A stretch of DNA of 64,000 bases from a virus (Duplodnaviria; Caudoviricetes), in the IMG/VR virus record IMGVR_UViG_2684623125_000003, positions 3,873 to 67,872 of that record, one strand, 5' to 3'. Position numbers and translations under genes: made by a program. Positions within the stretch are counted from its first letter, which is position 1. Each line of letters begins with the position of its first letter. The notes below the pieces were generated by a model, which was not told the DNA's origin, did no database searches, and was given only the letters and a program-made list of their open reading frames with translations. Of this stretch, positions 19,229 through 62,390 are shown piece by piece.

Positions 19229-21283
19229 ATGGCTTCTGTCACCGAACAACTGATCATGAGGATTGCCCTGATAGATGCCGTTACCCGGCCGCTTGAGGGC
19301 ATCAACAGCCAGCTGAACCGGGTGAAAGAGACCGCGCAAAGCGGCTTTGCCAATATTGCCGGCGGTGGCGCCGCCATGCTGGCCGGCACCATGGCGATCC
19401 AGAATGCACTGGGGCCAGCTCTGGAAATGGACGCGGCCCTGGCCGAAGTGGCCTCGCTCGATGTCCATGAAAAGACCCTCAAGCAGCTCTCCGACACCGC
19501 CTTGATGTTCTCCGTCAAGTACGGCGAATCGGCCAGCGCGTTTGTCAGCGCCTCCTACGATATCCAATCCGCCATCGCGGGGCTGGAGGGCAACGAACTG
19601 CCCTCCTTTGCCCGTGCCTCTGGCGTGCTGGCCAAGGCTACCAAGGCCGACACCGCCACCATCACCAACTACATGGGCACCATGTATGGCATTTTCGAGC
19701 AACAGGCCAAGAAGATGGGCAAGGCCAACTGGGTGGAAGATGTCGCCGGCAAGACCGCGCAAGCGGTGCAGATGTTTAAAACCACCGGTCAGGGCATGAC
19801 CGACGCCTTCAAGGGCATTGGCGCCAACGCCACCGCCGCCGGGATCTCGATGGATGAGCAGTTCGCCGTGCTCGGCCACCTGCAGGCCACCATGGGCGGC
19901 GGCGAGGCCGGTACCAAGTTCAAGTCCTTCCTGGCCGGGGTCGGCAGTGCTCAGAAAGCGCTCGGCCTCAAGTTCACCGACGCGGCGGGCAACATGCTGC
20001 CGGTGCTCGATATCCTGGACAAGCTCAAGGCCCGCTATGGTGACACCCTCACCGTGGCCGGCAGCGACGAGCTGAAAAAGGCGTTTGGCTCGGACGAAGC
20101 GGTCTCGATGATCAAGCTCTTGATGAGCAACACCCAGGGCCTGGCCACCAGTATCAACGCCCTGGCCAACACCCACGGCATGGGCAAGGCCGAGCAGATG
20201 GCCGGGGCCATGGTGGACCAGTGGCAACGGGTCAAGTCGGCCTGGTTCGCGATCCGAGCTGCCGCTTTCGGGGCACTGCTCCCCGCCATCAACAAGGTGG
20301 TGGGTGCCTTTGCCGATGGCGGTGACCTGGTACTGCGCTGGACCCGGCTCTTTCCCAACCTCACCAAGGTGGTGGGGGCCGTCATCTTGGCCATTGCGGG
20401 CCTTAGCATCGTGACCGGTGCCTGGCTGATGCTGGCCGGCGTCGCCAAGCTGGCCACCCTGGCCTGGGCGCTGACCTTCGGCGGTCTCAGTGGCCCCATC
20501 CTCCTGTTCAAGAAGGCCCTCGCCGCCCTGCGCCCGGTTATCTTCGCCGTCAACCTGGCGATGAGTCTGAACCCGGCGGTGATCATCATCGGGGCGATCC
20601 TGGCACTGGTCGCCGCCGTGGCGCTGGCCATCATCTACTGGGACGAACTGCGCGCCACCTTCGCGGTGCTGACTGACTTTGAACTGCTGGGCGCCTTCTT
20701 TGGCGGCCTGGCCGAGACCTTCGGCCCGCTCGCGTCGCAAGCACTGGCCCCCGTGGCGGATTTTTTCACCCTCATCGTGGGGCTGCTCGGTCAGGGGATC
20801 GCCTGGCTTGGCGGCTTCTTTGAACAAACCAACCAGGCCAGCGTCGGCATCGACAACGTGGCCGACGCCGGCCGCCGGATGGGAACCATCCTTGGTGAAA
20901 TTTTTGACACCCTGCTTACCCCGTGGCGGGCACTGATCGCGCTCATCAAGACGGCGCTCGATGCCTCGAATCAGTTCCTGGGCACCCAGTTCGACACCGG
21001 CGCCTTGAACGTGGATGTGTTGCCCAAATGGGCCGGCTCCCCCACGGATATCACCCCGCCCGCCACCGTGGTGAACAGCCCCTTGGCCAGCTACCGCCAG
21101 CAGGACCAGAGCAAGGTGCCATCCGGGGGCCTTGGCCAACAGTTGATCCAGGCCAACGCGGCGGCGACCACCACCAACCAGAAGCCGGCAAAGGCCATGC
21201 ACATCGGCGAGGTGCACAACCACTTTGCCAACCCGATCACCCCTGGGGAGATGGAGCAAGAAATGTGGATAACGACCAAATGA
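19229..21283 (+). CDS. Tail tape measure protein (684 aa)
   Basis: Ala-rich helical; GGEAGTKFKSFL. Confidence 0.93.
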   Translation: MASVTEQLIMRIALIDAVTRPLEGINSQLNRVKETAQSGFANIAGGGAAMLAGTMAIQNALGPALEMDAALAEVASLDVHEKTLKQLSDTALMFSVKYGESASAFVSASYDIQSAIAGLEGNELPSFARASGVLAKATKADTATITNYMGTMYGIFEQQAKKMGKANWVEDVAGKTAQAVQMFKTTGQGMTDAFKGIGANATAAGISMDEQFAVLGHLQATMGGGEAGTKFKSFLAGVGSAQKALGLKFTDAAGNMLPVLDILDKLKARYGDTLTVAGSDELKKAFGSDEAVSMIKLLMSNTQGLATSINALANTHGMGKAEQMAGAMVDQWQRVKSAWFAIRAAAFGALLPAINKVVGAFADGGDLVLRWTRLFPNLTKVVGAVILAIAGLSIVTGAWLMLAGVAKLATLAWALTFGGLSGPILLFKKALAALRPVIFAVNLAMSLNPAVIIIGAILALVAAVALAIIYWDELRATFAVLTDFELLGAFFGGLAETFGPLASQALAPVADFFTLIVGLLGQGIAWLGGFFEQTNQASVGIDNVADAGRRMGTILGEIFDTLLTPWRALIALIKTALDASNQFLGTQFDTGALNVDVLPKWAGSPTDITPPATVVNSPLASYRQQDQSKVPSGGLGQQLIQANAAATTTNQKPAKAMHIGEVHNHFANPITPGEMEQEMWITTK

Positions 21284-21603
21284 GCGAACCCAAGTACATC
21301 GATCTGCTGGTCGTGAACGGCGCCTGGCTGCTCGATGCCGGCGGCCAGCCGCGCACCACCCAGGACCGCCACAGCATCGGCCAGGACATCAAGCACCGCA
21401 TCATGGAATCGGGGCTGGCCCGCAAGCTGATTGGCGAGCGCAGCCCAACCCTGCGCGCCGACGTGATGACCGAGATTGAATTGCTGGTCGAGAACGACGA
21501 GCGACTGGTGCCAGGCACCATCCTCATTCGTGAGGAATACCCGCAGCGCATTCTGGTGACGGCCCGCACGTATGACTTTGGCGATCTGGAGGTAACCCTG
21601 TGA
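21280..21603 (+). CDS. Baseplate wedge protein (gpW-like)
   Basis: SIGQDIKHRIMESGL; synteny. Confidence 0.85.
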   Translation: MSEPKYIDLLVVNGAWLLDAGGQPRTTQDRHSIGQDIKHRIMESGLARKLIGERSPTLRADVMTEIELLVENDERLVPGTILIREEYPQRILVTARTYDFGDLEVTL

Positions 21604-22787
21604 ACCTGCGCCCGAACGTGGACTTTATGGCCCTGCTGGCCGAGACCGGCATCCCGACCACCGAGCAGGCCATGGAGGCCGAGCTTAAAAAGGAGGTGGT
21701 GGCCGCCGGCTCCCTTATCACCAACGACAGCGATGTGAGCCCATTTTGGCGACTGGTGCGCGGCGTGGTCATCACCCCGGCGCTTTGGCTTGTCCGTACC
21801 CTGCTGGCTGGCCATGTGTTGCCCAACACCTTTGCCGCCACTGCCACCGATGCCTATCTCGACCTCAAGGCGTGGGATGTGGATCTCACCCGCAAGGGCG
21901 ACCAGAAGACCCGAGGGGTAATCAACTTCGTCAAGGTGAACCCAAGCGAAGCAGTCACCATCCCGGCCGATATCTGGATCAGCACCGAGCGCATCAACGG
22001 CACCCTCTACCGGGTCAAGCCACTGCAAGCGGTAGTGAGCCCAGCCGGTGAAGCGGTGGCCCGCGTGGTGTGCGAAGCCGAGTTCGCGGGCGCGGCCTGG
22101 AATCTGGCCCCAGGCTATTACCACCTGCTCAGTGAACCGGTGACCGGTATCCTCTCGGCTCGCAACGATGACAAGGAGTGGATCATCACCCCGGGTGCCG
22201 ATGCGGAAAGCAACGATGCGCTGGGCCTGCGCATCAAGAACCAGTTCTCTGCAGTGGGGCGCTATCACATCGACGCCGTCTATCGCTCGATGCTGGCCAG
22301 CGTCGCGGGCATTCGTGCCGATCATATCGTCTTCGAGCACGATGCCCCGCGCGGGCCAGGTACCGCCAATGCCTACATCCTGCTGGAAGTGGGGACCACA
22401 CCGGCCAGCCTCATCAGCAAGCTTAACGACTACGTGACCAACCAGGGCAACCACGGCCACGGTGATGATCTGCAGGTGATGGCGATGCCGGAAACCGAGC
22501 ACTCCCTGCACCTTGAACTGTGGCCCGTCGATAACCTTGGCGAGCCCCAGCGGGCCGCCCTGGTCGCGGGGGTCAGGCAGCTGGTCAATGCGGCGTTCCG
22601 GCTGTCGGCTGACTATCCGACCGTGACCCGTACCTGGCCGCAGTCCCGTTTCTCCTTAAGCCAGCTGGGCCGCGAGCTGCATCAGGCATTCCCCGAGATC
22701 AGGAGCCTGCACTTCACCGAGCTGGATATCCTCTCGGGGCTCGCCATCCCGCGCCTATCTGGGCTGGAGGTGACGCTCCATGAATAA
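21600..22787 (+). CDS. Baseplate J-like protein
   Basis: SPFWRLV, APRGPGTANA. Confidence 0.9.
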   Translation: MNLRPNVDFMALLAETGIPTTEQAMEAELKKEVVAAGSLITNDSDVSPFWRLVRGVVITPALWLVRTLLAGHVLPNTFAATATDAYLDLKAWDVDLTRKGDQKTRGVINFVKVNPSEAVTIPADIWISTERINGTLYRVKPLQAVVSPAGEAVARVVCEAEFAGAAWNLAPGYYHLLSEPVTGILSARNDDKEWIITPGADAESNDALGLRIKNQFSAVGRYHIDAVYRSMLASVAGIRADHIVFEHDAPRGPGTANAYILLEVGTTPASLISKLNDYVTNQGNHGHGDDLQVMAMPETEHSLHLELWPVDNLGEPQRAALVAGVRQLVNAAFRLSADYPTVTRTWPQSRFSLSQLGRELHQAFPEIRSLHFTELDILSGLAIPRLSGLEVTLHE

Positions 22788-23472
22788 AACCACCGGCATC
22801 GACCATCTGAGCGCCGCGCCCCAGCTGCCGGAAAGCGCCGCCCCGTGGTGGGAAGATGGCAAGAGCATCGCGGACGAGGTGCAGGAGCCTGCCTTTTTGG
22901 CCCGGGGCATCATGGCCCTGTGGCGCCGACTACGAGGCTGGCTGGTACAGCCGCTGGCGCAACAAGACCCGCTGACCTGCTCCGAGTCCCTGCTGGCACT
23001 GCTCGCCTGGGAGCGGGATATCACACGCTTCAAGGGCGAACCGCTCGACCTGTTTCGCAAACGGGTGAAGTTCGCCTTCATCAACGCCAGAGACGCGGGC
23101 GGTACCGCAGGCTTTGTCGATATCTTTGGCCGGTTCGATATCACCCTGCGCGCCCAGATGGAGCGCATCGACGGCATGGATTGGGACATCATCCTGCTGT
23201 TGCTCGATGAGCACAGCGACCAACTGACGGAGCGGCTGGCCCACGAGCTGGTGAAGCAGTACCGCCGCACCTGTCGCCGCTATAACGTGGGCGTGACCGC
23301 GTTCACCGACCAGCAGCAGTTGGGCTGCGCCGAGTTTTCGGCCAGCTATCAAACCATCACCGCATCAACGGATGTCGAACTGGCCGGTTCGGTCTGGGGG
23401 CATTGCGTGAGGGCGGCCCAGCCGATCTCTGCCAGCTATGTAACTACGGAGGCTAAATGGCCGAAATCCTGA
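22780..23472 (+). CDS. Baseplate/tail protein gpI-like
   Basis: LLAWERDITRF..FRKRVKFAF. Confidence 0.88.
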   Translation: MNKTTGIDHLSAAPQLPESAAPWWEDGKSIADEVQEPAFLARGIMALWRRLRGWLVQPLAQQDPLTCSESLLALLAWERDITRFKGEPLDLFRKRVKFAFINARDAGGTAGFVDIFGRFDITLRAQMERIDGMDWDIILLLLDEHSDQLTERLAHELVKQYRRTCRRYNVGVTAFTDQQQLGCAEFSASYQTITASTDVELAGSVWGHCVRAAQPISASYVTTEAKWPKS

Positions 23473-24239
23473 ATCGGGGGATGATGCTCATCACCCAGAA
23501 TCTCGCCCTAAACGTGGCCACCCACATCGACAAGATGGTGCTGGCCTACAAGCCGGGGTTGAACTACACCGACCCGGTGAATCCGGATGAACCGGATCCC
23601 GCACTGGGGGAAATCAAATATCGGGGACCGGTCACCAAGGCCGCCGCGATCTCGCCGGACAAGGTGGTCTATTCCCTGCTGCTGGAACCGACCGTGGGGC
23701 CGTTTACATTCAACTGGATGGGGCTGGAAGCCAGCGATGGCACCCTGGTCGCGGTCTCCTATCTGCCTGATACGGTCAAGGTGGCCAAGGATGCCAACCA
23801 GCCAGGGGATACCCTGATCCGCAACTTCATCCTGGCCTTCGCCCGCGCCAGCGCCGCGCTGGATGTGACCATCACGCCGGAGACATGGCAGTTTGATTTC
23901 ACCGACTACATCAACACCGCGATCAGCGATGGGTTGCGCGCCGGGTTCAGTGCATCGGCGATCACTGCCGACAGTTCGCTGCCAGCAAACGGGAAATACC
24001 CGTCACACCTGAGATTTATGAAACCTGCCGTCGTGACCCTGGATGAAACATGGGCGGATGGTAGCCGCCTCGGCGTGATTGTCGATCACAGCGTGGATAT
24101 GGCGGCAGGGGACTGCATCGTGCAGCTAACCAGCGGGACGATCAGCACCAGCGCCGGGGCTGACCGTCAAATCAGACTGCGCCAAGCCAGTCGCGAGTTT
24201 ATTTTCGAGAAGATTGCCGGACAGTGGAGGGCAGCATGA
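23457..24239 (+). CDS. Short tail-fibre anchor protein
   Basis: VVYSLLL..GPFTFNWMGL..TWQFDF; only 260 aa. Confidence 0.85.
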   Translation: MAEILNRGMMLITQNLALNVATHIDKMVLAYKPGLNYTDPVNPDEPDPALGEIKYRGPVTKAAAISPDKVVYSLLLEPTVGPFTFNWMGLEASDGTLVAVSYLPDTVKVAKDANQPGDTLIRNFILAFARASAALDVTITPETWQFDFTDYINTAISDGLRAGFSASAITADSSLPANGKYPSHLRFMKPAVVTLDETWADGSRLGVIVDHSVDMAAGDCIVQLTSGTISTSAGADRQIRLRQASREFIFEKIAGQWRAA

Positions 24240-25096
24240 TCACATTGGGAGGCAGTGCCGGAGCAAGCACTGGATTCGGGCGGTTTAGAAACCGCATTGA
24301 AGTGTTGGACATCATCCCGGGCACGCGCCAGCTCACTATTCCAGAAGGGTGGAACAAGATCCGGGTCGCCGTGGTGGGAGGTGGCGGCGGCGGCCGGCTT
24401 TTTGGTGGCAATTATGGATATGGCGGAGGCGGCTCTGGTGGGGGGTATGCAGAGAAAGTGTTCGATGTGACGCCAGGGCAAACCTTCACATATACGGTCG
24501 GTGCAGGCGGTGAAGTCAATGTTGATGGAAGCACATCCAGTTTTGCCGCCGTGCTCTCTGCAACTGGTGGGAGAACTGCATCATCACCATCATCCTCCAA
24601 CAGCATCGGTTCTGCCGGCGGTGTAGGTATCGGTGGCGATGTTAACAACCCGGGTGGGCGAGGTGGATCTGGTTACTCAGACCCCAAAGGGGGAGCCGGC
24701 GGGGGAGGTGCATCAGGCCATAGATACGGGGCCGGTGGCGATGGCGCCAATGGGGAACCAAATTCTGTGCAGGGAGCTGGGGGCTCATGGATAGGAGGGG
24801 TTAGACCGTTGCTGTACGACGATGGGTGGGGGCTGGGTATAACCCCACATGACTTGCCTATCGATGCAGATTTAACTGCCAATGGAGCGCAATCTTCACA
24901 ATCAACATCAATATATTCACGCGTCGGACTGGGAACAAGTCGGCAAGACACTAGGCCAAACATCGGTGGTGGCTCATGCGGTTTAGTGAGCACTGTCGTA
25001 CAGCGCGGAGGTATCGGCGCTGGCGGCGGCGGTGGGTACAACATATATGCCGGTGCAGGTGGGGCTGGAGCAGTAATTGTGGAGGTATTGGGATGA
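24236..25096 (+). CDS. Glycine-rich putative adhesin / tail-tip protein
   Basis: VVGGGGGG..GGGGSGGGY..TVGAGG repeats; ATGA-coupled. Confidence 0.75.
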   Translation: MITLGGSAGASTGFGRFRNRIEVLDIIPGTRQLTIPEGWNKIRVAVVGGGGGGRLFGGNYGYGGGGSGGGYAEKVFDVTPGQTFTYTVGAGGEVNVDGSTSSFAAVLSATGGRTASSPSSSNSIGSAGGVGIGGDVNNPGGRGGSGYSDPKGGAGGGGASGHRYGAGGDGANGEPNSVQGAGGSWIGGVRPLLYDDGWGLGITPHDLPIDADLTANGAQSSQSTSIYSRVGLGTSRQDTRPNIGGGSCGLVSTVVQRGGIGAGGGGGYNIYAGAGGAGAVIVEVLG

Positions 25097-25311
25097 ATTA
25101 CTACGCAAGACTGATTAAAGATCGCGTGACGGAAATCTGGAACGATGGTGGCCTGAACATCACCCCGGCTGATGTGCATGTGGCTGAGCTGGCCGCCAAG
25201 TTTGTGCCCTGCCCTGACTGGGTGATCGCTGGCGCGACCTTTGACGGCAAAGAGTGGATCAACCCTGAGCCGATCCTGCCGACCGAGCCCACCGAGGAGC
25301 CCGAGGAATGA
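25093..25311 (+). CDS. Small tail-fibre-associated protein (72 aa)
   Basis: MNYYARLIKDRVTEIW; homolog at 60734-60961. Confidence 0.75.
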   Translation: MNYYARLIKDRVTEIWNDGGLNITPADVHVAELAAKFVPCPDWVIAGATFDGKEWINPEPILPTEPTEEPEE

Positions 25312-26189
25312 CATGGCACCAGGGCCATCTGGTATGGCCCGCATCGGCTGACGCCATCCATGGCGCTGCCAACGGGGTGACAAGCCAGATCCCGGGCGCT
25401 CAATCAGCCGCAGTAAACCGCCTGCAAGGGCTGGCGGGGCGGGCTCAGTACCGGCCCCATCCACTCAGCGAGGCCGCCGCCGCGCTGGCGGGGTTACGGG
25501 GTGAACTGGACAGGCTGCTGGTCACTGGTCGCTGCCTGACCGTGACCCCGTATCAGCATGGAGTGGGCCAGCACCAGGGCAACCAGTACAGCCTCGCCGC
25601 CCCCAACGCGGTGGCCACCCTTGCCGCCAAGCTGCAGGACGGGGCCGATCCCCTGCTGCCGACTGGCCAGCTGCACGCCATCGCCTGGCTGGTGACCGGC
25701 AACAGCGCCGAGGCACTGGCCATGGCCTTGGCCCCGCTCTGCACCGTACTGCCGCTGCCGGAGTGGTGCGCCACCCTGCGCCGCCTCACCGCCAACAACG
25801 ACACCATGAGCCAGCCCACCGCCGCCAAGGTGCCACGCTGGAAAGCAGACGAGCCTCTGAGTTGGGATCCGCTGCGCCCGGCCCGCTTGGCGCTGGGGGC
25901 AGAGCTGGCCCAACTGGAGAGCCTTTGCAGGGACAGCCAGACCCCGATCACCAAGCTGCAGGGGCTGGCGAAACGCCGTGCCGACCGCCTGGCCACCCTC
26001 GCCGAGGCTCTGGCCAGGCTGGGCTCACTCTCCGGTACCCTCTGGCACTGGCAGGGCCAGGGGGATGCAGCCAGCCTGGCCGCCCAGCTGGGCCAGAGCA
26101 GCCCGCCAGACCATAGTCAGAGCATGACGGTCGGCACCCTGCTGCTCTCCCCTTCCCCGCTCACCTTCTGGCAGGAGTTAACCCAATGA
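25308..26189 (+). CDS. Conserved HP1-type tail-region protein
   Basis: Coupled ORF; homolog at 60958-61833. Confidence 0.75.
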   Translation: MTWHQGHLVWPASADAIHGAANGVTSQIPGAQSAAVNRLQGLAGRAQYRPHPLSEAAAALAGLRGELDRLLVTGRCLTVTPYQHGVGQHQGNQYSLAAPNAVATLAAKLQDGADPLLPTGQLHAIAWLVTGNSAEALAMALAPLCTVLPLPEWCATLRRLTANNDTMSQPTAAKVPRWKADEPLSWDPLRPARLALGAELAQLESLCRDSQTPITKLQGLAKRRADRLATLAEALARLGSLSGTLWHWQGQGDAASLAAQLGQSSPPDHSQSMTVGTLLLSPSPLTFWQELTQ

Positions 26190-26737
26190 GCAGAACCGCC
26201 ATGCTTACCCTGGACGGTGAGCCCGTTGTGATGAAGTCGATGCGGGTCTCCGCATCGATGCAGTTTCAGGACAAGGACAACAGCGGCCAGACCAGCGCAA
26301 CCAGCAGCTCGGAGCAGGGGGAGAAGGCCAAGGAGCTCGATGTCTCCGGCCTGATCCCGTTCAAGGATGAGCAGATGCTGAGCCGGCTGTTTGAACTGGC
26401 CTGCGCCAAGGGGGATGGCGGTCAGCGTCATATTTACCGGGTAGGTTCGCTGTTGGCCAAGTCAGTGAAGGTGCGCCAGGCCAAGTTTGCCGGCCGCATC
26501 ACGGCCAGCGAACAGGAAGGGCTGCTGGCATGGCAAGTGCAGTTCACCCTGCGCGAACACAACTCGGTGCCCGAGAAGCGGGAACAACGCCTACCAAAAA
26601 CGACTGCCTCTGTCGGAAAAGGGACCGGTAACACCACCGCAGTAAAGGGCAACGACGCACCGGAACAAGACAAACTGAACCGCTTTGAACAAGGCCTTAA
26701 ATGGGTTGATGGCAAGGTAGGAGATATTTTAGCGTGA
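26186..26737 (+). CDS. Putative baseplate / tube-initiator protein
   Basis: SGQTSATSSSEQG..WQVQFTLRE; homolog at 61830-62390. Confidence 0.75.
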   Translation: MSRTAMLTLDGEPVVMKSMRVSASMQFQDKDNSGQTSATSSSEQGEKAKELDVSGLIPFKDEQMLSRLFELACAKGDGGQRHIYRVGSLLAKSVKVRQAKFAGRITASEQEGLLAWQVQFTLREHNSVPEKREQRLPKTTASVGKGTGNTTAVKGNDAPEQDKLNRFEQGLKWVDGKVGDILA

Positions 26738-28347
26738 AACTGTCCACTCGCCTGACCCTGGCGGGTCAACCTGTCCACCTGGTCGACCATGATATGGTGC
26801 TGGACCTCAACGCCGGCGGCCGCGCCGCTCTCACCATCGAAGGCCAGGCCGAGAAGGGGCAAACCCTGACCGTGGACACCGGCTATAACAACCAGTTGCA
26901 CCGCTGGTTCACCGGTTACGTGTATGACGTGCAGCCCGCCACCAATGGCACCAACAAACTGCTTTGCCGTGAGCTGGCGGGGATACTGGGCAGCCGCTTT
27001 CCAGTCAGCCTCCAACATGCCACCCTGCGCCGCCTGCTGGCCTGGCTGACTGACCAGACTAGCCTTACTTTCCTGTTACCTGATGGGGCTGACTATACCG
27101 ACCGGCCTATCCCCAACTTCACCAGTGCCGGTACCGGCTATCAGCTGCTCGATCATGCCGGTCGCGCCTTCGCGGTCCCCGACTTCATTTGGCATCAACA
27201 ACCCGATGGCACCATCTTCGTGGGCAGCCACGCCCATAGCCGCTGGCCTGAGCGTGCGGTAGCGCTGGATCCGGCGTTTTCGAGCCATCAAGCGGGCAAC
27301 ACGCTGACCACGGCGCCGATCCCGACCATGCGCCCAGGCGCTATCGTCAACGGCAAGCGGGTGATGCGGGTGCGCCTTAAGGGCGACCAGATGACCCTGA
27401 CCACGGCAACGCCTGGCAAACCGGTGAAAACGCCGGAACGGCGCAAGATAGAGGGGGAGTTCCCAGAGCTGGCCGACAACATGCACCTGCCAAAATTCGG
27501 ACGGGTCGAGGCCATCAGCGACCAGGCCAGCGCCGGCCAGCTCAATGACCCATTCCGCCCCCGCTATGCGGTGGACGTGCAGCTGCTGGGTGAGGATGGC
27601 CAGCCGGAGCAGGCCGCCCCGCTCTATCGGGCGGTGCCGCTGCCAGTGATGTTCGGCGGGCCTGAGCAGGGGCTGATGCAATTCCCCATCGAGGGGACGC
27701 TGGTTGAACTGGGGTTCGCCTTCGGGCGGGCCGACCGGCCCTTTATCCGCACCGTGCTCGGCAGTGGCTGGCCACTGCCTGACATCGCCCCGGGCGAGCA
27801 GCTACAGCAGCAACGGGCCGAGGTGGCCAGCCGCATCGATACCGTAGGCAACCTCTCCCGCCACACCGACCGGCGCCTGCACGACCGCGCCCTGCAGATG
27901 CACCACCAGAGTGACGATTACCTAGGAGAGCATGGCCAGCACCGGCTGCAGATAGCCCAGCACAGCATCGAGGAGGTGGGCGGGCTCAAGCTCATCGAGG
28001 CGCTCGGTGCCATCGAGCTGCTGGCCGGCGATGACCTGACCCTGGGCTGTCTGGGTAACCTAAGCCAGACCACGGCGGGCGACCTGGTTGAGGTAGTGGG
28101 TCAGTTGCGGCGCAGTGTGGCCGCCGAGCTGCAGCACCTGGAGGCGCCCCGTTCGTGGATGGGGACCGAGGGCGTGAACATCTTCCGGCTGCTGCTGCAG
28201 CTGATGAACGTGGTGGAGCAGCTGGCCGCTGCCACGGCCAGCCACACCCACGGCAGCGGCCCGGTGCCGGGTAACAGCGGGGCCATGACCGGACATGGCC
28301 AACAGGCCAAACAGCTAGCTGACCAGCTCTCCCCCATCATCGAATAG
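26734..28347 (+). CDS. Baseplate hub-spike fusion protein
   Basis: C-terminal HTH tripeptide (HxH metal-tip motif); homolog at 62387-64000. Confidence 0.8.
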   Translation: MKLSTRLTLAGQPVHLVDHDMVLDLNAGGRAALTIEGQAEKGQTLTVDTGYNNQLHRWFTGYVYDVQPATNGTNKLLCRELAGILGSRFPVSLQHATLRRLLAWLTDQTSLTFLLPDGADYTDRPIPNFTSAGTGYQLLDHAGRAFAVPDFIWHQQPDGTIFVGSHAHSRWPERAVALDPAFSSHQAGNTLTTAPIPTMRPGAIVNGKRVMRVRLKGDQMTLTTATPGKPVKTPERRKIEGEFPELADNMHLPKFGRVEAISDQASAGQLNDPFRPRYAVDVQLLGEDGQPEQAAPLYRAVPLPVMFGGPEQGLMQFPIEGTLVELGFAFGRADRPFIRTVLGSGWPLPDIAPGEQLQQQRAEVASRIDTVGNLSRHTDRRLHDRALQMHHQSDDYLGEHGQHRLQIAQHSIEEVGGLKLIEALGAIELLAGDDLTLGCLGNLSQTTAGDLVEVVGQLRRSVAAELQHLEAPRSWMGTEGVNIFRLLLQLMNVVEQLAAATASHTHGSGPVPGNSGAMTGHGQQAKQLADQLSPIIE

Positions 28348-28357
28348 GGATGCACAG

Positions 28358-29056
28358 ATGATCTCGCTGACTCTTAATCAAAACACCATGCACCGCCTAC
28401 TGGAGCGCCTGGACGCCGCCTCTCTGCCGCCGGCGAAACGCCGGCGCATCACCCAGCAGATAGGCCGCGAAGTGGCCAAGGTGAGCCGCCAGCGCATCCG
28501 TGCCGGCAAAGCACCTGATGGGACAAAGTGGGCCCCCACCAAGAGCAAACGCAAGCACAAGCGGCTCACGGGCCTCTCCAAGCGTCTGCGCTCTCGCGGT
28601 ACCGAGGATGCGGCCATCATCGACTTTGACTCCCGCTTTGCAGGGATGATCGCCAACCAGAACCACCAGGGAATGTCACAGCCATTCGCGGCAGCGCCGC
28701 CCAAGCCAGCACAACCGAGGAAGTCAGAGCGGGGCAAGAAGCAGGAACCGTTCAAGCCTACGGATAGCCCTTGCACCCGTAGCCAGGCGCAGCGCCTGCG
28801 TGCGCTGGGGTACAAGGTGCTGTCAGACCGGGGCGCTCGTCGCCGCTACCGCAAGCCCTCCCTCAAGTGGATACGGGAACATGTCAGTGTTACCCGGGCT
28901 GCCATCCTGATCAGGACCACCACTGGAGAGACCAGGAAGCACCGCTGGACGGTAGAGACTCCCGCCCGCCCCATGCTCCCCCAGGCCAACAACGACGAAC
29001 TGCTGGTCATCGCCGCCAAGGCATTCAAGAAGATGGGATGGGGCGCCGGCCAGTAA
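28358..29056 (+). CDS. Virion morphogenesis / tail completion gpS-like, at a displaced position
   Basis: RQRIRAGKAPDGTKWAP..PARPML; homologous to 50749-51432. Confidence 0.85.
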   Translation: MISLTLNQNTMHRLLERLDAASLPPAKRRRITQQIGREVAKVSRQRIRAGKAPDGTKWAPTKSKRKHKRLTGLSKRLRSRGTEDAAIIDFDSRFAGMIANQNHQGMSQPFAAAPPKPAQPRKSERGKKQEPFKPTDSPCTRSQAQRLRALGYKVLSDRGARRRYRKPSLKWIREHVSVTRAAILIRTTTGETRKHRWTVETPARPMLPQANNDELLVIAAKAFKKMGWGAGQ

Positions 29057-29083
29057 CCTGCCGACTATCACCCAGCACACGAC

Positions 29084-29108
29084 AGCGACGCACCAGCGTC
29101 GCTTTTTT
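29084..29108 (+). terminator. Late-operon terminator
   Basis: AGCGACGC-ACCA-GCGTCGCT-TTTTT. Confidence 0.85.
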
Positions 29109-29137
29109 GTGGCCAGCCCCCTGCCCTGCAGCCCAGT

Positions 29138-29156
29138 GGCGACGGAGGAAACGCAC
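29138..29156 (+). other. cos: Candidate cos site
   Basis: GGCGACGGAGGAAACGCAC matches 14/19 of the P2 cohesive end as recalled; non-coding region near att as in HP1. Confidence 0.45.
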
Positions 29157-29627
29157 CGCTCACGGAATCCGCACTCCTCCCCCCCCACCTTCGGGCTAAA
29201 AATGTGGCGTTTTTTGCACAAATAAAATGGTGCAAATCCATCGTCTAGCCCGCGCCATGGCTGGGTTCTTGGGGGGAATTCAGAATTTCACAAAACGTCA
29301 TTTGATGATCGTTTTGGGGAGGTTTGATCACGCCCATCAGACGGAGCGAAAATCGTAAGCCATTGAGAATAAACAGATGATGGTGACTTTCCGTGAGGAT
29401 CTGAGTCGGCGCGGTGGATCTGGTTAGACCATAAGGAAAAAGCTGGAAAGCCTTATGTGGCAAGGCTTGGCGGGTAGTTTTGGCAAGGATCCAGAATTTC
29501 GCTAGTGAAGCATTTCTATCTATCGCCGAAATGAAAATGTAGACAAATTGTGATAAGGCGCCCCATCCAACTAGGCGGAAACCGCCTACAAATCTTGACG
29601 AAATCGTCATTTCGTTATAGTGTTCTA

Positions 29628-29795
29628 GTCGAAAGCGCAAAGTCGGTGGCCAGTTGGGGCAATGACCGATAGAGGAACCCCAGAATGTCCAACTGCATTG
29701 TGAGGGTGAGACCTTTCCTCACCAGCTTGGGTGAGTACAAAGTACAAGCAAAATGAAAGATTCAAAATTGAGGCAACCATAGGTTGCCTCTTTTC
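29628..29795 (+). ncRNA. Predicted structured ncRNA (~165 nt) with pseudoknot
   Basis: Promoter TTGACG(29595)-17-TAGTGT; interlocked stems; terminator GAGGCAACC-ATA-GGTTGCCTC-TTTT. Confidence 0.55.
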
Positions 29796-30294
29796 ATTTA
29801 TGGCGAGCATAGACTAGCTTTCCATGTCTATGTTTGTTCATCGATTTTGCTTCACTTTGCATGAAGTTCCACAAGATCTTGTCTGGTGTAATTGTGGCAA
29901 CAACCAGCATCATGTTTCGCTCTTCAAAGGTACCTATGAAGGCATACCGATAGCTTCCGTCGTCATAAGCAACCTCCCAAACCTCGAAGGGATTCTGCAG
30001 GGTTACGATAGCATGATTGACGTAACGTTCTCTGGCATGTGGTCTTTTCTCAACAATGTGCGGTAAAGAACCCCGACACACCTGAATATCACCGACTGGT
30101 GTAACCATCATCACTGATGCTTCGTTGCCGACAAAACCAAACTTACTTACCAACACAGCAACTGCATCTTCTTGAGTAGCAGCCGGCGGCTCTTGCTCAA
30201 TAGCAGGAAGCCTCTTCTCTACCCCAAGGCCCTTCAGGTCTTCCAACTCCATGCTTTTCCAATCAGGCTGATCGGGGCACTCTTTTACTGTCAC
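29794..30294 (-). CDS. Standalone PBECR-type (barnase/EndoU/colicin/RelE-like) nuclease domain protein
   Basis: HIVEKR..RERY...TLQNPFEVW..RYAFI pattern; own -10 TAGAAT; low GC. Confidence 0.65.
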   Translation of the reverse strand: MTVKECPDQPDWKSMELEDLKGLGVEKRLPAIEQEPPAATQEDAVAVLVSKFGFVGNEASVMMVTPVGDIQVCRGSLPHIVEKRPHARERYVNHAIVTLQNPFEVWEVAYDDGSYRYAFIGTFEERNMMLVVATITPDKILWNFMQSEAKSMNKHRHGKLVYARHK

Positions 30295-30460
30295 GAAAAA
30301 ATCTCAGTTGGATGCTCAAGACGGGGGAGCATTCTAGCAGAAGGCTAAAAAAAAATGGGTAGGACACACTTGGAATTGAGATGAACTGAGTCACTGGAAA
30401 GAAGAATCGAGCATCGGTTTACGCCGATCATCTAAATACCTGCCGCCACCATGACACAGA

Positions 30461-30491
30461 AAAACAAAAGGCCATCCGCTAGGATGGCCTT
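30461..30491 (-). terminator. Phage-supplied terminator downstream of the tRNA 3' end
   Basis: AAGGCCATCC-TAGC-GGATGGCCTT-TTGTTTTT on the minus strand. Confidence 0.8.
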
Positions 30492-30508
30492 AAGTCATTG
30501 AATTCTAA

Positions 30509-30562
30509 TGGTGCCCGGGGTCGGACTCGAACCGACACGGTTATTCACCGGCGGATTTTGAA
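30509..30562 (-). tRNA. 3' half of tRNA-Leu(CAA), serving as att core (not a full tRNA)
   Basis: TTCAAAATCCGCCGGTGAATAACCGTGTCGGTTCGAGTCCGACCCCGGGCACCA; D-arm and 5' acceptor strand absent. Confidence 0.9.
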
Positions 30563-30581
30563 ACCGTTGGAGTCCCTTCAG

Positions 30582-30594
30582 AATCAATAAGTTA
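30582..30594 (+). promoter_or_regulatory. IHF site in the att arm
   Basis: AATCAAtaagTTA matches WATCAA-N4-TTR. Confidence 0.6.
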
Positions 30595-30637
30595 CTGATT
30601 TATAACAGGTCGAAAATCTCAATATGACCACATGTAG

Positions 30638-31690
30638 CTAAATATGGGGCGGCTCGATGGACTGTTTATGGACACTTTTCAGTGCGGTGATGGGGTTTAA
30701 CCGTACCGCATCCTCCAAGTGATCGGGGGCAAAGTGGGCATAACGCATCGTCATCTTGATATCCGTGTGGCCGAGGATTCGCTGCAGCACAAGAACGTTG
30801 CCACCGTTCATCATGAAGTGGCTGGCAAAGGTATGGCGTAGAACGTGGGTGCTCTGCCCTGTCGGCAGCTTGATACCTGCTCGCCTGATGGCCTTCTCGA
30901 ACTCGGCATAGCAATCATCGAACAGGCGGCCTGTACGCTTGGGCAACATGGCCAGCAACCAGGGGGCGACAGGGACCGTCCTGTTTCTCTTTCCCTTTGT
31001 CTTGGTGAAGGTGATTCGCCCCATGCCAATCTGTGATCTGGTTACCTTCTCAATCTCAGACCAGCGGGCGCCGGTCGAAAGGCAGAGCATGACGACCAGC
31101 CACAGATCCCGCTGCTCCTTGCAGGCATCAAGCAGTTGCTCGATCTCATCCTGGGAAAGATAAGCCAGCTCGGATTCTTGCACCTTGTACTGGCGCAGGT
31201 CAGAAAGCGGATTTCCGCCTTGCCAAACTCCGAGGCGGGCCAGCTCGTTGAACACCGCTTGCAGATAGAGCTGCTCACGGTTGATGGTGGTGGGGGTGAC
31301 CTGCTTGCGCTGCCCAGGAACATAAAGCTCCCCCGCCAATCGCCGTTCGCGGTATGCCGAGAAGTGTTCGGAGGTGAACTCGCTGGCAAGCGGGTTATCC
31401 AGAGCTTCGCACAGCCAAACCAGCTTATCGCGGCGCCGTTCACCATCAGCCAAGGTCTGCCCGTGGCGGCCAAACCAGAGGTGAACCAAATCGAGCAGCC
31501 GCTGGCAGTTCTGCTCTGGCTCGGGTGCCTCCTCTTTCAGCCACGGCTTGTTCAGAAGCTGGTGCCGTTCCCACGCCAGCGCTTCACCTTTAGTCATAAA
31601 GCTCTTGCGCAGGCGGGGACCGTTTACCCCATCAGGGCGAACGTCTGCCCGCCACGGCTTGGCTTGCCCCTCAATTTTTTTGACTGTCAT
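30638..31690 (-). CDS. int: Tyrosine integrase (HP1/186 type)
   Basis: TGARWSE, TKGKRNR, HVLRHTFASHF, LGH..MTMRYAH. Confidence 0.96.
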   Translation of the reverse strand: MTVKKIEGQAKPWRADVRPDGVNGPRLRKSFMTKGEALAWERHQLLNKPWLKEEAPEPEQNCQRLLDLVHLWFGRHGQTLADGERRRDKLVWLCEALDNPLASEFTSEHFSAYRERRLAGELYVPGQRKQVTPTTINREQLYLQAVFNELARLGVWQGGNPLSDLRQYKVQESELAYLSQDEIEQLLDACKEQRDLWLVVMLCLSTGARWSEIEKVTRSQIGMGRITFTKTKGKRNRTVPVAPWLLAMLPKRTGRLFDDCYAEFEKAIRRAGIKLPTGQSTHVLRHTFASHFMMNGGNVLVLQRILGHTDIKMTMRYAHFAPDHLEDAVRLNPITALKSVHKQSIEPPHI

Positions 31691-32522
31691 CGCACACCGC
31701 TCGGGCTTGCTTGTGGGATGCAATGGCCTGCGCCAGTTGATCACGCGCAGACTGCAGTGCATTGGCATCACCATTTTTGGCGTATGTATAAAGCTGGCCA
31801 ACAAACGCATCGGAGCGCTGCACCAAGTCAGCAGCCAGTCGGATAACCACATCATCATCCAGGTGGCTGGTACGCAAGCCGTTCATAGAACCACGAACGG
31901 CAGATATCATCGGATTGACGGTGCTTACCCGATACTCGGCAATCTGGTGGTGGTCGATCTGCTGGCCATTGAGTAGACCACCAAAGCGCCCCATCACCCC
32001 GTCAGTGGTCTGGTTCACCTGCTGATAGATCTCCTGCTCCAGTCGGCACTGTTCAGCGAGGGTGAGTGGACGCAGAGCCATGGCTGGTTGTTGCTCGCCA
32101 TGAACCAGCTCGCTATCAGCGGGCGGCATAGGGGTTTCAAACCGAGCAGGGCGGAACAGCCAGGCGCCAGCGAGCGCCGCAACGAACAGCACCAATACGC
32201 CGGCCCCTGCTGTACTTGGGCGAACTGATGCCGCTCTCTGCGCCCGTTCCTCTTTGCTCATCTTGAGAACAGACAGGACATGACTGAAGAACAGCAGGAT
32301 CCCATGTACGACAGCCAACACGGCCAGCAGCACCAATCCGCCAGACAGTTCGATCTTGCCATTCGGCACCATGCTGAGCAGGGCAAAACCGAGGAATGCG
32401 TAGAGCCCGATAAAGAACGCATTAAGCCGGCGCTTCTGTCCAAACAAAGCCGGTTTGAACAAACTGATCACCGTCAGCAGCAAGCATAAAAGGGCTGTCC
32501 AGATAGCCAACACAGAAAGCAT
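31671..32522 (-). CDS. Membrane protein (about 4 TM plus helical domain) in the lysogenic operon
   Basis: Hydrophobic N-terminal half; GGAG RBS; between cI and int. Confidence 0.75.
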   Translation of the reverse strand: MLSVLAIWTALLCLLLTVISLFKPALFGQKRRLNAFFIGLYAFLGFALLSMVPNGKIELSGGLVLLAVLAVVHGILLFFSHVLSVLKMSKEERAQRAASVRPSTAGAGVLVLFVAALAGAWLFRPARFETPMPPADSELVHGEQQPAMALRPLTLAEQCRLEQEIYQQVNQTTDGVMGRFGGLLNGQQIDHHQIAEYRVSTVNPMISAVRGSMNGLRTSHLDDDVVIRLAADLVQRSDAFVGQLYTYAKNGDANALQSARDQLAQAIASHKQARAVCDDSQKN

Positions 32523-61833: not shown

Positions 61834-62390
61834 ATACCACCATGCTGACCCTGGATGGGGAACCGGTCGTGATGCAGTCCCTGCGCATCACCGCATCGAT
61901 GCAGTTCCAGGACAAGGACCAGAGCGGACAGACCAGCTCAACCAGCAGCGCCGAGCAGGGGGCCAAGGCCAAGGAGCTGGACGTGATGGGACTTATCCCC
62001 TTCAAAGATGAGCGCCACTTGGCCCGCCTCTTTGAACTGGCCGATGCCAAGGGGGACGGCGACAAACGCCATGTCTACCGGGTCGGCTCCCTGCTGGCCA
62101 AAACCATTAAGGTACGCCAGGCCAAGTTTGCCGGCCGCATCACCGCCAGCGAGCAAGAGGGGCTGCTGGCCTGGCAGGTACAGTTCACCTTGCGCGAACA
62201 CAACTCGGTACCGGAGAAGAAAGAGCAGCGCAGAACGCAGCCCACCCTGACCGTAGGCCAGCACACCGACAACACGCGCGCCAGTAAACCGCCCACCAGT
62301 GCTGGCCTATCGCAAGACACATCTGGCAGCCCGGATTTGAGCTGGTTCGAGCGGAGCGTACTCAAGCCCATGGATGATGCACTCGGATGA
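61830..62390 (+). CDS. Putative baseplate protein
   Basis: Homolog of 26186-26737. Confidence 0.75.
   Translation: MNTTMLTLDGEPVVMQSLRITASMQFQDKDQSGQTSSTSSAEQGAKAKELDVMGLIPFKDERHLARLFELADAKGDGDKRHVYRVGSLLAKTIKVRQAKFAGRITASEQEGLLAWQVQFTLREHNSVPEKKEQRRTQPTLTVGQHTDNTRASKPPTSAGLSQDTSGSPDLSWFERSVLKPMDDALG

What the first reader, a model, noticed from the sequence alone, without database searches (positions are those of the whole stretch)
29595..30340. Pseudoknotted ncRNA converging on a standalone PBECR/RelE-like nuclease: candidate new RNA-protein toxin-antitoxin or defence module
Seen: a plus-strand promoter TTGACG-17-TAGTGT and a terminator at 29770-29794 bracket about 165 nt with no plus-strand ORF. 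TCGGT(29643-47) pairs with ACCGA(29665-69) while the loop sequence CAGTTGG(29651-57) pairs with CCAACTG(29689-95), an H-type pseudoknot. It is followed by a GTGAGG/CCTCAC stem with a GG-TGAGA-CC T-loop-like cap and a GCTT..GTAC-AAA-GTAC-AAGC stem; CTCACC has alternative GGTGAG partners. The opposing gene has its own -10 and no protein antitoxin neighbour. Known: type III TA/Abi systems (ToxIN, AbiQ) neutralise RNases with pseudoknotted RNAs, but use tandem repeats upstream of the toxin. Inferred: a single-copy, convergent RNA antitoxin or cofactor for a PBECR nuclease in the cos-att moron slot.
Basis: partly seen in the sequence, partly recalled or inferred. Interest (0 to 1): 0.8.

Follow-up and report, generated by a model that had tools for sequence, protein, structure and literature searches.

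The report
Structured small RNA partnered with PBECR2 RNase
A real, intricately folded small RNA gene sits tail-to-tail with a predicted phage RNase gene, and this RNA-protein pair recurs across plasmids, prophages and phage head genes, most likely as an RNA that keeps the RNase harmless.

Summary
Window 29630-29797 (+) is a small RNA gene of about 165 nt. It has its own promoter and terminator and converges on a 166-aa PBECR2 gene (29794-30294, -; Pfam E 4e-14).

A covariance model finds the same RNA, on the same side and strand, next to 78 of 81 homologous genes (39-96% protein identity). It also finds it in 9 of 9 plasmid loci examined and 5 of 5 true viral hits. A shorter variant follows at least 25 of 43 MuF-PBECR2 phage head genes.

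Covariation supports two hairpins joined by a kissing loop, plus a 3' pseudoknot (93% of cells paired against 33-42% in slid controls). His GTGAGG/CCTCAC stem is not the conserved one.

No Rfam family matches, and I found no paper on it. No protein partner is conserved. In 151 Pseudomonas genomes, none of the 15 full-length genes is shown to lack the RNA, while 14 of 29 RNA copies lack an intact gene.

Best reading (0.55): the RNA neutralises the RNase, as a type III-like antitoxin or immunity RNA. Binding and toxicity are untested.

The parts
29595..29623 (+). Promoter of the small RNA: -35 TTGACG 29595-29600; -10 TAGTGT 29618-23 (17-nt spacer) or TATAGT 29616-21 (15-nt spacer)
   Evidence: Sequence read. 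In 77 distinct upstream regions, the -35 is TTGAC[TAG] in 61, and the -10 ends 8-11 nt before the conserved GCG in 72. Not listed by the generic scan.
29596..29609 (.). Dyad TGACG-AAAT-CGTCA overlapping the -35 (TGAC-N6-GTCA)
   Evidence: Present in 14 of 77 distinct promoters from several lineages. Its role is unknown.
29630..29797 (+). Small RNA of about 165 nt. Both ends are predicted, not mapped.
   Evidence: The covariance-model hit covers 29624-29755 at 82.8 bits. Terminator. Metatranscriptome contigs stop at 29633 and 29646.
29632..29642 (+). Conserved unpaired 5' motif AAAGCGCAAAG (family consensus GAGCGCGAAA)
   Evidence: The GCG and one A are invariant in 77 sequences.
29643..29669 (+). 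Hairpin P1. P1a is 29643-47 / 29665-69; P1b is 29649-51 / 29658-60; loop L1 is AGUUGG 29652-57.
   Evidence: P1a 98.1% and P1b 99.6% of cells paired; 7 of 9 pairs show compensatory changes. Also predicted by RNAalifold.
29670..29676 (+). Conserved junction UAGAGGA (family consensus UAGGAAC region)
   Evidence: Invariant G, A and C in this region.
29677..29707 (+). Hairpin P2 (29677-88 / 29695-29707, with a bulge). Its loop L2, CCAACU 29689-94, pairs with L1 as a kissing loop.
   Evidence: Kissing loop: 7 of 7 pairs with changes on both sides, 96.8% paired. P2: 99.7% and 90.5% paired.
29708..29715 (+). Conserved unpaired GAGACCUU (part of the invariant GUGAGACCU)
   Evidence: Invariant columns G85 T86 G87 A90 C91 C92 T93 of the first sequence.
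29716..29749 (+). 3' pseudoknot. P3 is 29716-23 / 29730-37. P4 joins the P3 loop GCUUG 29725-29 to CAAGC 29745-49.
   Evidence: P3: 82.5% paired, 5 of 7 pairs compensatory. P4: six or more different complementary versions 2-10 nt after P3.
29770..29799 (+). Intrinsic terminator: 9-bp hairpin plus UUUUCAUUU. It overlaps the stop codon of the convergent gene.
   Evidence: In many homologous loci the T-run lies only on this strand (by eye).
29794..30294 (-). PBECR2 gene, 166 aa: a predicted metal-independent RNase of the BECR fold
   Evidence: Pfam PF18810, E 4.3e-14, 53.2 bits against a cut-off of 27.1. AF2 model pLDDT 93.3. Invariant H79 within HIVEKR and several invariant Arg.
30510..30565 (-). 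Context: the 3' part of a tRNA gene, read by eye as the att site at the junction of two tandem prophages
   Evidence: Sequence. No whole tRNA found by ARAGORN. Unique in the window. An integrase lies at 30638-31858.

Best explanation
Window 29630-29797 (+) encodes a small RNA of about 165 nt made from its own sigma-70-type promoter and ended by its own terminator. The RNA folds into two hairpins locked by a loop-loop (kissing) contact, followed by a pseudoknot, with about 15 invariant unpaired nucleotides.

It is the obligate genetic partner of the convergent PBECR2 gene, a predicted metal-independent RNase. Most likely the RNA binds the RNase and keeps it inactive, acting as an RNA antitoxin or immunity factor. 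The pair would then behave as an addiction or anti-phage (abortive infection) module for the prophage or plasmid that carries it. When RNA supply fails or is overwhelmed, the RNase would cut cellular or phage RNA.

Shown here:
- the RNA gene and its fold;
- its strand, promoter and terminator;
- its tight linkage to the PBECR2 domain in very different genomic settings.

Inferred:
- transcription (only a weak hint from RNA contigs);
- toxicity of the protein;
- direct binding and neutralisation.
For: 1. Linkage.
- One RNA hit per locus, on the strand opposite the gene and at its 3' end, in 78 of 81 homologous loci plus the window.
- Two of the three misses are contigs that end 51-54 nt after the stop codon.
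- 9 of 9 plasmid loci have it, including a 4.2-kb Acinetobacter plasmid whose protein is only 34% identical.
- 5 of 5 true viral hits have the gene next door.

2. Structure.
- 93.2% of cells paired against 33-42% in slid controls.
- 28 of 35 pairs show compensatory changes.
- 0 of 500 shuffles reach the observed covariation score.
- The plain MAFFT alignment gives 88%, and RNAalifold agrees.

3. Strand.
- G-U 94 against A-C 39 in the pairs.
- The promoter is conserved.

4. No conserved protein partner.

5. One-sided loss in 151 Pseudomonas genomes.
- 14 of 15 full-length genes have the RNA adjacent. The 15th is split from an RNA by contig ends.
- 14 of 29 RNA copies have a broken gene (3) or none (11).

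6. Orphan copies decay.
- 4 of 11 orphans deviate at invariant positions, against 0 of 7 independent gene-linked copies.
- Three more orphans lost P3/P4.

7. Setting.
- 75 plasmid records carry the gene, among par, resolvase and relaxase genes.
- In one Pseudomonas chromosomal site, type II toxin-antitoxin pairs occupy the gene's place.

8. A related RNA fills the gap directly after MuF-PBECR2 head genes. It is found in 25 of 43 loci at E<0.05. The next gene is a Phage_tail_S homologue in 6 of 6 tested, which leaves no room for a protein immunity gene.
Against: - No experiment or computation here shows binding, inhibition or toxicity.
- Known RNA antitoxins of type III systems are tandem repeats upstream of the toxin and are cut by it. 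This RNA is single-copy and convergent.
- 7 of 11 orphan RNAs keep all invariant positions, so the RNA may have a use without the gene.
- Two loci (L222, L046) carry a CopG/RHH ORF overlapping the gene start, which could be a protein antitoxin there.
- The loss asymmetry comes from one genus sample. Three of the 15 'full-length' hits carry a TAG flag that I did not inspect.
- Fold search gives only weak BECR-like matches.
- The protein hits no PADLOC model.
- The sequences are related, so counts of covarying cells overstate independent events.
Confidence: 0.55

Rival explanations
1. The RNA is a working partner rather than an inhibitor. It could be a scaffold, specificity factor or preferred substrate that the PBECR2 domain binds or processes, with the RNA-protein particle as the active agent. 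In the MuF form, the particle could be loaded into virions.
For: The linkage and fold evidence is the same as for the best explanation. The fold is more elaborate than simple sequestration would need. Iyer et al. 2017 (PMC5512222, passages read) proposed an RNA-binding role for the related MuF-C domain.
Against: A mutually dependent pair should lose either part about equally often. Here no full-length gene lacks an RNA, while 14 of 29 RNAs lack an intact gene. The putative catalytic His and Arg residues are invariant, which suggests an active nuclease that would need restraint.
Confidence: 0.22
2. The RNA is a cis-antisense regulator, as in type I systems with 3' overlap. Convergent transcripts would pair at their shared 3' ends, or along a read-through 3' UTR, lowering PBECR2 mRNA stability or translation.
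For: The layout is convergent, with a shared bidirectional terminator that overlaps the stop codon. In many Pseudomonas loci the T-run lies only on the RNA strand, so the mRNA might read through (by eye). One metatranscriptome contig spans both genes.
Against: The certain overlap is only the terminator. Invariant unpaired nucleotides, an intramolecular kissing loop and a pseudoknot are not needed for perfect antisense pairing. Cognate RNA/5'-UTR duplexes are no stronger than non-cognate ones: -64.9 against -62.4 kcal/mol over 20 representatives (a crude test).
Confidence: 0.12
3. The RNA is an independent small RNA, or a DNA-level element such as a recombination or transfer site, that merely travels beside the gene.
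For: 11 of 29 copies in the Pseudomonas sample stand without any PBECR2 remnant. Several lie at one chromosomal site whose neighbouring gene cassette varies between genomes. On some plasmids the element lies near a relaxase gene.
Against: The linkage survives down to 34% protein identity and across prophage, plasmid, chromosome and MuF-fusion settings. The G-U excess, the promoter and the terminator all point to an RNA on one strand. Orphan copies show decay.
Confidence: 0.08

Closest known systems
Type III toxin-antitoxin systems (ToxIN, CptIN, TenpIN / AbiQ). Features recalled, with search listings.
   Same: A protein RNase is paired with a structured, pseudoknotted RNA and no protein antitoxin. 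The pair is carried on plasmids and prophages and is linked to phage defence.
   Different: Here the RNA is single-copy rather than tandem repeats. It is convergent with its own promoter, rather than upstream and co-transcribed. The protein is PBECR2 (BECR fold), not the ToxN/AbiQ kind. Processing of the RNA by the toxin is unknown.
AbiF with the RCd22 RNA of a Clostridioides difficile prophage (bioRxiv 10.1101/2025.04.15.648962; abstract read)
   Same: A prophage-borne toxic protein is neutralised by an associated structured non-coding RNA through direct RNA-protein contact. The RNA is not a ToxI-type repeat array.
   Different: The protein family differs (Abi_2/AbiD/F) and so does the RNA motif. 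No Rfam family, abiF included, matches here. The gene arrangement also differs.
Type I systems with convergent 3'-overlapping antisense RNAs (par/Fst of pAD1, bsrG/SR4). Recalled, not read here.
   Same: Convergent transcription with a shared bidirectional terminator.
   Different: Type I toxins are small membrane peptides, whereas this gene encodes a 166-aa RNase domain. The overlap here is only the terminator. The RNA has a conserved tertiary fold.
MuF/polyvalent phage proteins with C-terminal PBECR domains (Iyer et al. 2017, PMC5512222; passages read). Downstream protein immunity genes for MuF toxins are recalled.
   Same: The whole 166-aa unit recurs at the C-terminus of Phage_Mu_F proteins. 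The same RNA core follows those genes.
   Different: The paper mentions no RNA partner in the 12 PBECR passages shown. Where a protein immunity gene would be expected, the gap is filled by the RNA.
Type II RelE/YafQ/HigB modules
   Same: The toxin fold class (BECR) is the same. In one Pseudomonas chromosomal site, a RelB-YafQ pair sits exactly where PBECR2 sits in other genomes.
   Different: Those modules have protein antitoxins. No protein partner is conserved here.

Membership tests
Pfam PBECR2 (PF18810) | Profile match above the curated cut-off | tested here: met
   E 4.3e-14, 53.2 bits against 27.1; residues 49-162.
BECR-fold RNases | N-terminal helix followed by a 4-5-stranded sheet, resembling solved BECR toxins | tested here: inconclusive
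   The AF2 model (pLDDT 93.3) has helices followed by five strands. Foldseek against PDB gives nothing at E<=0.001. The best relevant hits are 7m5f_C (CDI system, probability 0.69) and 7vd7_A (toxin-antitoxin complex, probability 0.63). A sequence profile against PDB finds nothing.
BECR-fold RNases | Conserved catalytic His in the first core helix (Iyer et al. 2017, passage read) | tested here: met
   H79 in HIVEKR is invariant in 25 sequences and lies in helix 74-81 of the model. The C-terminal Thr/Ser of that scheme was not assigned.
Type III toxin-antitoxin | Antitoxin is an array of tandem RNA repeats upstream of the toxin gene and co-transcribed with it | tested here: not met
   No tandem repeat in 29000-30700. 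One RNA copy per locus, convergent and downstream.
Type III toxin-antitoxin | Toxin of the ToxN/AbiQ/CptN/TenpN kind | tested here: not met
   PBECR2 is the only Pfam hit. No PADLOC model matches.
Type III toxin-antitoxin | The RNA binds and inhibits the toxic RNase | not testable with these tools
   The complex predictor takes no RNA chain. A bench test is needed.
Type I toxin-antitoxin | Small hydrophobic toxin peptide repressed by an antisense RNA | tested here: not met
   The gene encodes a 166-aa soluble-domain protein. No cognate 5'-UTR pairing signal was found.
Any Rfam 15 RNA family | Covariance-model match | tested here: not met
   0 matches at gathering score over the whole window. 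Only chance-level hits (E>6) in 29000-30700.

The most novel reading that the evidence does not exclude
The RNA is an 'immunity RNA' for a whole class of phage RNase warheads. It would hold the PBECR2 domain silent in the producing or lysogenic cell, whether the domain is a free protein or the C-terminus of the MuF head protein. In the MuF form the RNA may even ride in the virion, bound to the domain, until injection. That would be the first RNA immunity factor for a virion-delivered, polymorphic-toxin-like effector. It would also define a fourth, structurally unrelated family of RNA antitoxins.
Probability: 0.3. Interest if true: 0.92.

Novelty: new variant of a known kind. Interest (0 to 1): 0.85.

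Why it matters
The RNA has a covariation-backed fold, clear invariant nucleotides and a defined protein partner, and it matches no Rfam 15 family. That makes it directly testable.

If the RNA neutralises the RNase, three things follow. RNA antitoxins would extend beyond the three known type III families to the very large BECR toxin fold. It would explain how 'solo' PBECR2 genes are tolerated on plasmids and prophages. It would also explain how Mu-like phages can build an RNase into their heads without a protein immunity gene.

The pair is the only cargo of a 4.2-kb plasmid and occurs on 75 plasmid records, so it may matter for plasmid maintenance and phage exclusion.

Tried and rejected
- **Rfam.** Gathering and permissive searches gave nothing meaningful.
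- **DNA similarity to phage records.** None. tblastn of the solo protein against phage records also found none.
- **First locus searches with the single protein.** They found nothing in genome contigs and one near-identical viral contig. An alignment query was needed.
- **Anti-Shine-Dalgarno or 5'-UTR antisense idea.** Start codons are ambiguous and no shared complement was seen. Cognate and non-cognate duplex energies do not differ.
- **Loose DNA pattern scan of viral contigs.** It returned mostly chance matches. Of 117 or more stretches matched, 80 were returned as loci, and only 5 of those 80 were true by the model.
- **Conserved protein neighbour.** None was found. The CopG/RHH ORF occurs in only 2 loci.
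- **Enterobacterales sample of 151 genomes.** Only the centre genome has either part, so it says nothing about asymmetry.
- **PADLOC, NCBIfam and PHROGs.** No family matched the protein.
- **Named phages with full-length MuF-PBECR2.** Only 8 of 404 records cover 80% or more of the query, and none was in the rows shown. One (H58) ends at the record's end. I did not pursue this.
- **RNA reads.** Parts of the stretch without contig cover (29500-29632) are not evidence of silence.

Full report
**What is in the window**

The window comes from a provirus record. Its proteins look like those of Aeromonas (names). Positions 19229-29056 encode tail and baseplate proteins (PHROGs).

A second, related prophage starts with the integrase at 30638-31858. 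The two baseplate proteins are 72% identical. Between the prophages lie a non-coding stretch, the finding itself (29595-30340) and the 3' part of a tRNA gene at 30510-30565. I read that fragment by eye as the att site. ARAGORN finds no whole tRNA, and the fragment is unique in the window.

The ORF 29794-30294 (-) is a PBECR2 protein: Pfam PF18810, E 4.3e-14, above the curated cut-off.

**The observation**

The terminator 29770-29790 with its T-run is found by the scan. The promoter scores only 8 of 12 and is missed by the generic scan. Folding energy alone is unremarkable: z -2.85 for the plus strand and -1.49 for the minus strand. No Rfam family matches.

**Related loci**

The single protein found only near-identical copies. 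An alignment of 25 homologues (A1) retrieved 80 genome loci. Most are Pseudomonas. Others are Pantoea, Escherichia, Leclercia, Marinomonas, Janthinobacterium, Telluria, Pandoraea, Burkholderia and Aquabacterium.

Their 3' flanks carry a conserved non-coding element. I built a covariance model from a MAFFT alignment of 77 distinct copies. It hits the window and 78 of the 81 loci L002-L082, always once per locus, on the strand opposite the gene and at its 3' end, at 77-141 bits. Of the three misses, L050 and L057 are contigs that end 51-54 nt after the stop codon. L059 has 166 nt of unrelated flank.

**The fold**

On the unfitted MAFFT alignment, 88.0% of cells pair, against 33-40% when partners are slid by 1-3 columns. 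On the model-fitted alignment the figure is 93.2% against 33-42%. There, 28 of 35 pairs have changes on both sides, and 0 of 500 shuffles reach the observed covariation score. RNAalifold independently predicts P1a, P1b, P2 and P3, with 20 of 23 pairs compensatory.

In order, the RNA has:
- a conserved unpaired 5' motif (GAGCGCGAAA; AAAGCGCAAAG in the window);
- hairpin P1;
- a conserved junction;
- hairpin P2, whose loop pairs with the P1 loop (7 of 7 pairs with double changes, 96.8% paired);
- the invariant GUGAGACCU;
- hairpin P3;
- P4, a pairing between the P3 loop and a segment 2-10 nt downstream of P3. At least six different complementary versions of P4 occur. Its mean helix length is 6.1 against 4.7 for shuffled tails, so P4 is the weakest-supported helix;
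- a terminator.

His GTGAGG/CCTCAC stem is not the conserved helix. A caveat applies to all these counts: many sequences are close relatives, so cell counts overstate independent events.

**Strand and expression signals**

G-U pairs outnumber A-C 94 to 39. In 77 distinct upstream regions, the -35 is TTGAC[TAG] in 61, and the -10 ends 8-11 nt before the conserved GCG in 72. The reverse-complement control scores lower. In many loci the terminator's T-run lies only on this strand (by eye).

Aquatic metatranscriptome contigs from one study, about 96% identical to the window, cover 29646-30398 and 29633-30248. They stop at 29646 and 29633, a few nucleotides inside the predicted RNA 5' end, without running on upstream. 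A contig from a second study covers 29780-29998. This is a weak hint only, because RNA libraries can hold DNA and contigs show no strand.

**Where the pair lives**

- Apart from two ORF clusters that overlap the gene or the RNA and that I take as spurious, no other protein cluster is found in more than 20 of the 81 loci.
- The gene is on 75 plasmid records: Klebsiella 21, Pseudomonas 16, Leclercia 12 and others; 39 are conjugative.
- In the nine plasmid loci I opened, the gene lies among ParA, ParM, resolvase, relaxase or TrfB genes. The unannotated gap after it holds the RNA in 9 of 9.
- One of these is a 4.2-kb Acinetobacter plasmid that otherwise carries only rep and mob genes. Its protein is 34% identical and its RNA scores 33 bits.
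- A loose pattern scan of viral contigs matched 117 or more stretches, and 80 were returned as loci. The model confirmed 5 of those 80, and all 5 have the gene adjacent; one gene is frameshifted.
- A CopG/RHH ORF overlaps the gene start in only two loci.

**Loss pattern**

In a sample of 151 Pseudomonas genomes the RNA has 29 hits in 27 genomes. The protein profile has hits in 19 genomes.

- Of 15 full-length gene hits, 14 have the RNA adjacent. The 15th (G068) ends a contig, and an RNA ends another contig.
- Three of the 15 carry a 'TAG inside' flag that I did not inspect.
- Of the 29 RNA hits, 3 sit beside broken or fragmentary genes (G102, G113, G118). Another 11 have no PBECR2 remnant by six-frame hmmsearch.
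- Two weak partial protein hits (G060, G080) have no RNA and were not examined.

Many orphan RNAs lie between a LysR gene and a tautomerase-like gene. In L055, L066, L072, L073, L080 and L082 the same LysR gene sits just upstream of an intact pair (the tautomerase-like ORF is under the 80-aa cut-off of that table and was not found). In other genomes the gene's place is empty or is taken by a RelB-YafQ pair, or by a weak RelE-like ORF with an HTH ORF. In two genomes a RES/Xre pair lies on the promoter side.

Orphan copies also show decay. Four of 11 deviate at 1-3 of the 15 invariant positions, against 0 of 7 gene-linked copies that were not used to define those positions. Three more have lost P3/P4. 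The remaining orphans look intact.

**Extension to phage head proteins**

A profile search of 1.8 billion representatives finds 407 relatives, 270 of them at E<=1e-10. Many are 400-520 aa long and carry the whole 166-aa unit at their C-terminus. Six of 8 long ones that I tested are Phage_Mu_F plus PBECR2.

In 43 viral loci with such fusions, the solo-type model hits 21 at E<=0.05 with default filters. With filters off it hits 4 of the other 22 at E<0.05, with 8 weaker hits (E 0.06-4.3) at that place. All 21 default-filter hits, and these filters-off hits, lie on the opposite strand at the end of the fusion gene.

This variant is 90-110 nt long. A closing stem of 7-15 bp, with many unrelated sequences, encloses the same core: CGCGAAA or CGAGAUU, then P1a/P1b, a junction, P2 and GUGAGAC.
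- The closing stem was found in 30 of 31 candidates. L255 and L264 were left out of that count because they were unclear.
- P1a and P1b have 8 of 8 pairs compensatory on a MAFFT alignment of 29 copies. L227 and L234 were dropped from that alignment.
- The closing stem is often followed by a U-run.
- There is no P3 or P4.
- The folding energy is lower on this strand in 22 of 26 copies.

The next gene is a Phage_tail_S (Mu G-like) gene in 6 of 6 tested. The gap therefore has no room for a protein immunity gene.

**Interpretation**

The RNA-PBECR2 linkage is as firm as comparative data can make it. Five observations fit an RNA that restrains a dangerous RNase:
- there is no protein partner;
- the pair sits on plasmids and at prophage ends;
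- type II toxin-antitoxin cassettes occupy the same chromosomal slot;
- loss is one-sided;
- the RNA persists when the domain is fused to MuF.

I put 0.55 on this reading. An RNA-protein particle in which the RNA is a cofactor or substrate gets 0.22. A cis-antisense mechanism gets 0.12. An unrelated hitch-hiker gets 0.08.

**Known or new**

'PBECR2' occurs in one paper of the library and 'PBECR' in four. In the passages shown for the two papers I opened, Iyer et al. 2017 and a 2026 BECR classification preprint, none mentions an RNA partner. Searches for RNA antitoxins combined with BECR, or for new type III families, found nothing matching. A 2026 preprint on mining non-coding elements mentions type III systems only as benchmarks.

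The closest concept is AbiF/RCd22 (abstract read). Unnamed entries in the supplementary catalogues of RNA motifs could not be checked.

Noticed in passing
window 19229-29056 and 30638-64000: The window holds two tandem related prophages. The baseplate proteins 26734-28347 and 62387-63997 are 72% identical. The record ends before the second prophage's right end, so I cannot tell whether it carries its own PBECR2 pair.
   Followed up: partly
window 30468-30565: The 3' part of a tRNA gene (Leu-like by eye) lies on the minus strand, followed by a strong terminator at 30491-30468. It is probably the att core between the two prophages. No full tRNA is found anywhere in the window.
   Followed up: partly
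window 29104-29594: About 490 nt without a convincing ORF lie between the last tail gene's terminator (29084-29103) and the RNA promoter. They include a hairpin at 29572-29590. In the close relative L002 the similarity fades upstream of about window 29565 and ends near 29435, so the well-conserved part of the module starts near the hairpin.
   Followed up: no
window 29596-29609; loci: A TGAC-N6-GTCA dyad overlaps the -35 of the RNA promoter in 14 of 77 distinct promoters. Other lineages show different dyads at the same place by eye. It could be an operator or a hairpin.
   Followed up: partly
L226-L268 (viral contigs): In MuF-PBECR2 loci, the RNA promoter's -35 falls in the first codons of the next gene (Phage_tail_S family). 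Its -10 is the reverse complement of that gene's ribosome-binding site. Read by eye.
   Followed up: partly
window 28358-29056: The last structural gene before the module is itself a Phage_tail_S family protein. That is the same family that follows the RNA in Mu-like MuF-PBECR2 loci, though here it has a different orientation. This may be a trace of the module's origin.
   Followed up: no
L087, L093, L095, L097 (Pseudomonas chromosomes): The LysR / tautomerase-like interval holds different cassettes in different genomes: PBECR2+RNA, RelB-YafQ, a weak RelE-like ORF with an HTH ORF, or RES-Xre. The RNA sits at one border in each case.
   Followed up: partly
L222 1960-2478 and L046: A 172-aa CopG/RHH protein gene overlaps the PBECR2 start by 8 nt in two near-identical loci. 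It could be a local protein regulator or antitoxin.
   Followed up: partly
window 29824-30066 (+) and cluster 2: An antisense ORF inside the PBECR2 gene stays open in 42 of 81 loci. I take it as a by-product of the conserved sense frame.
   Followed up: no
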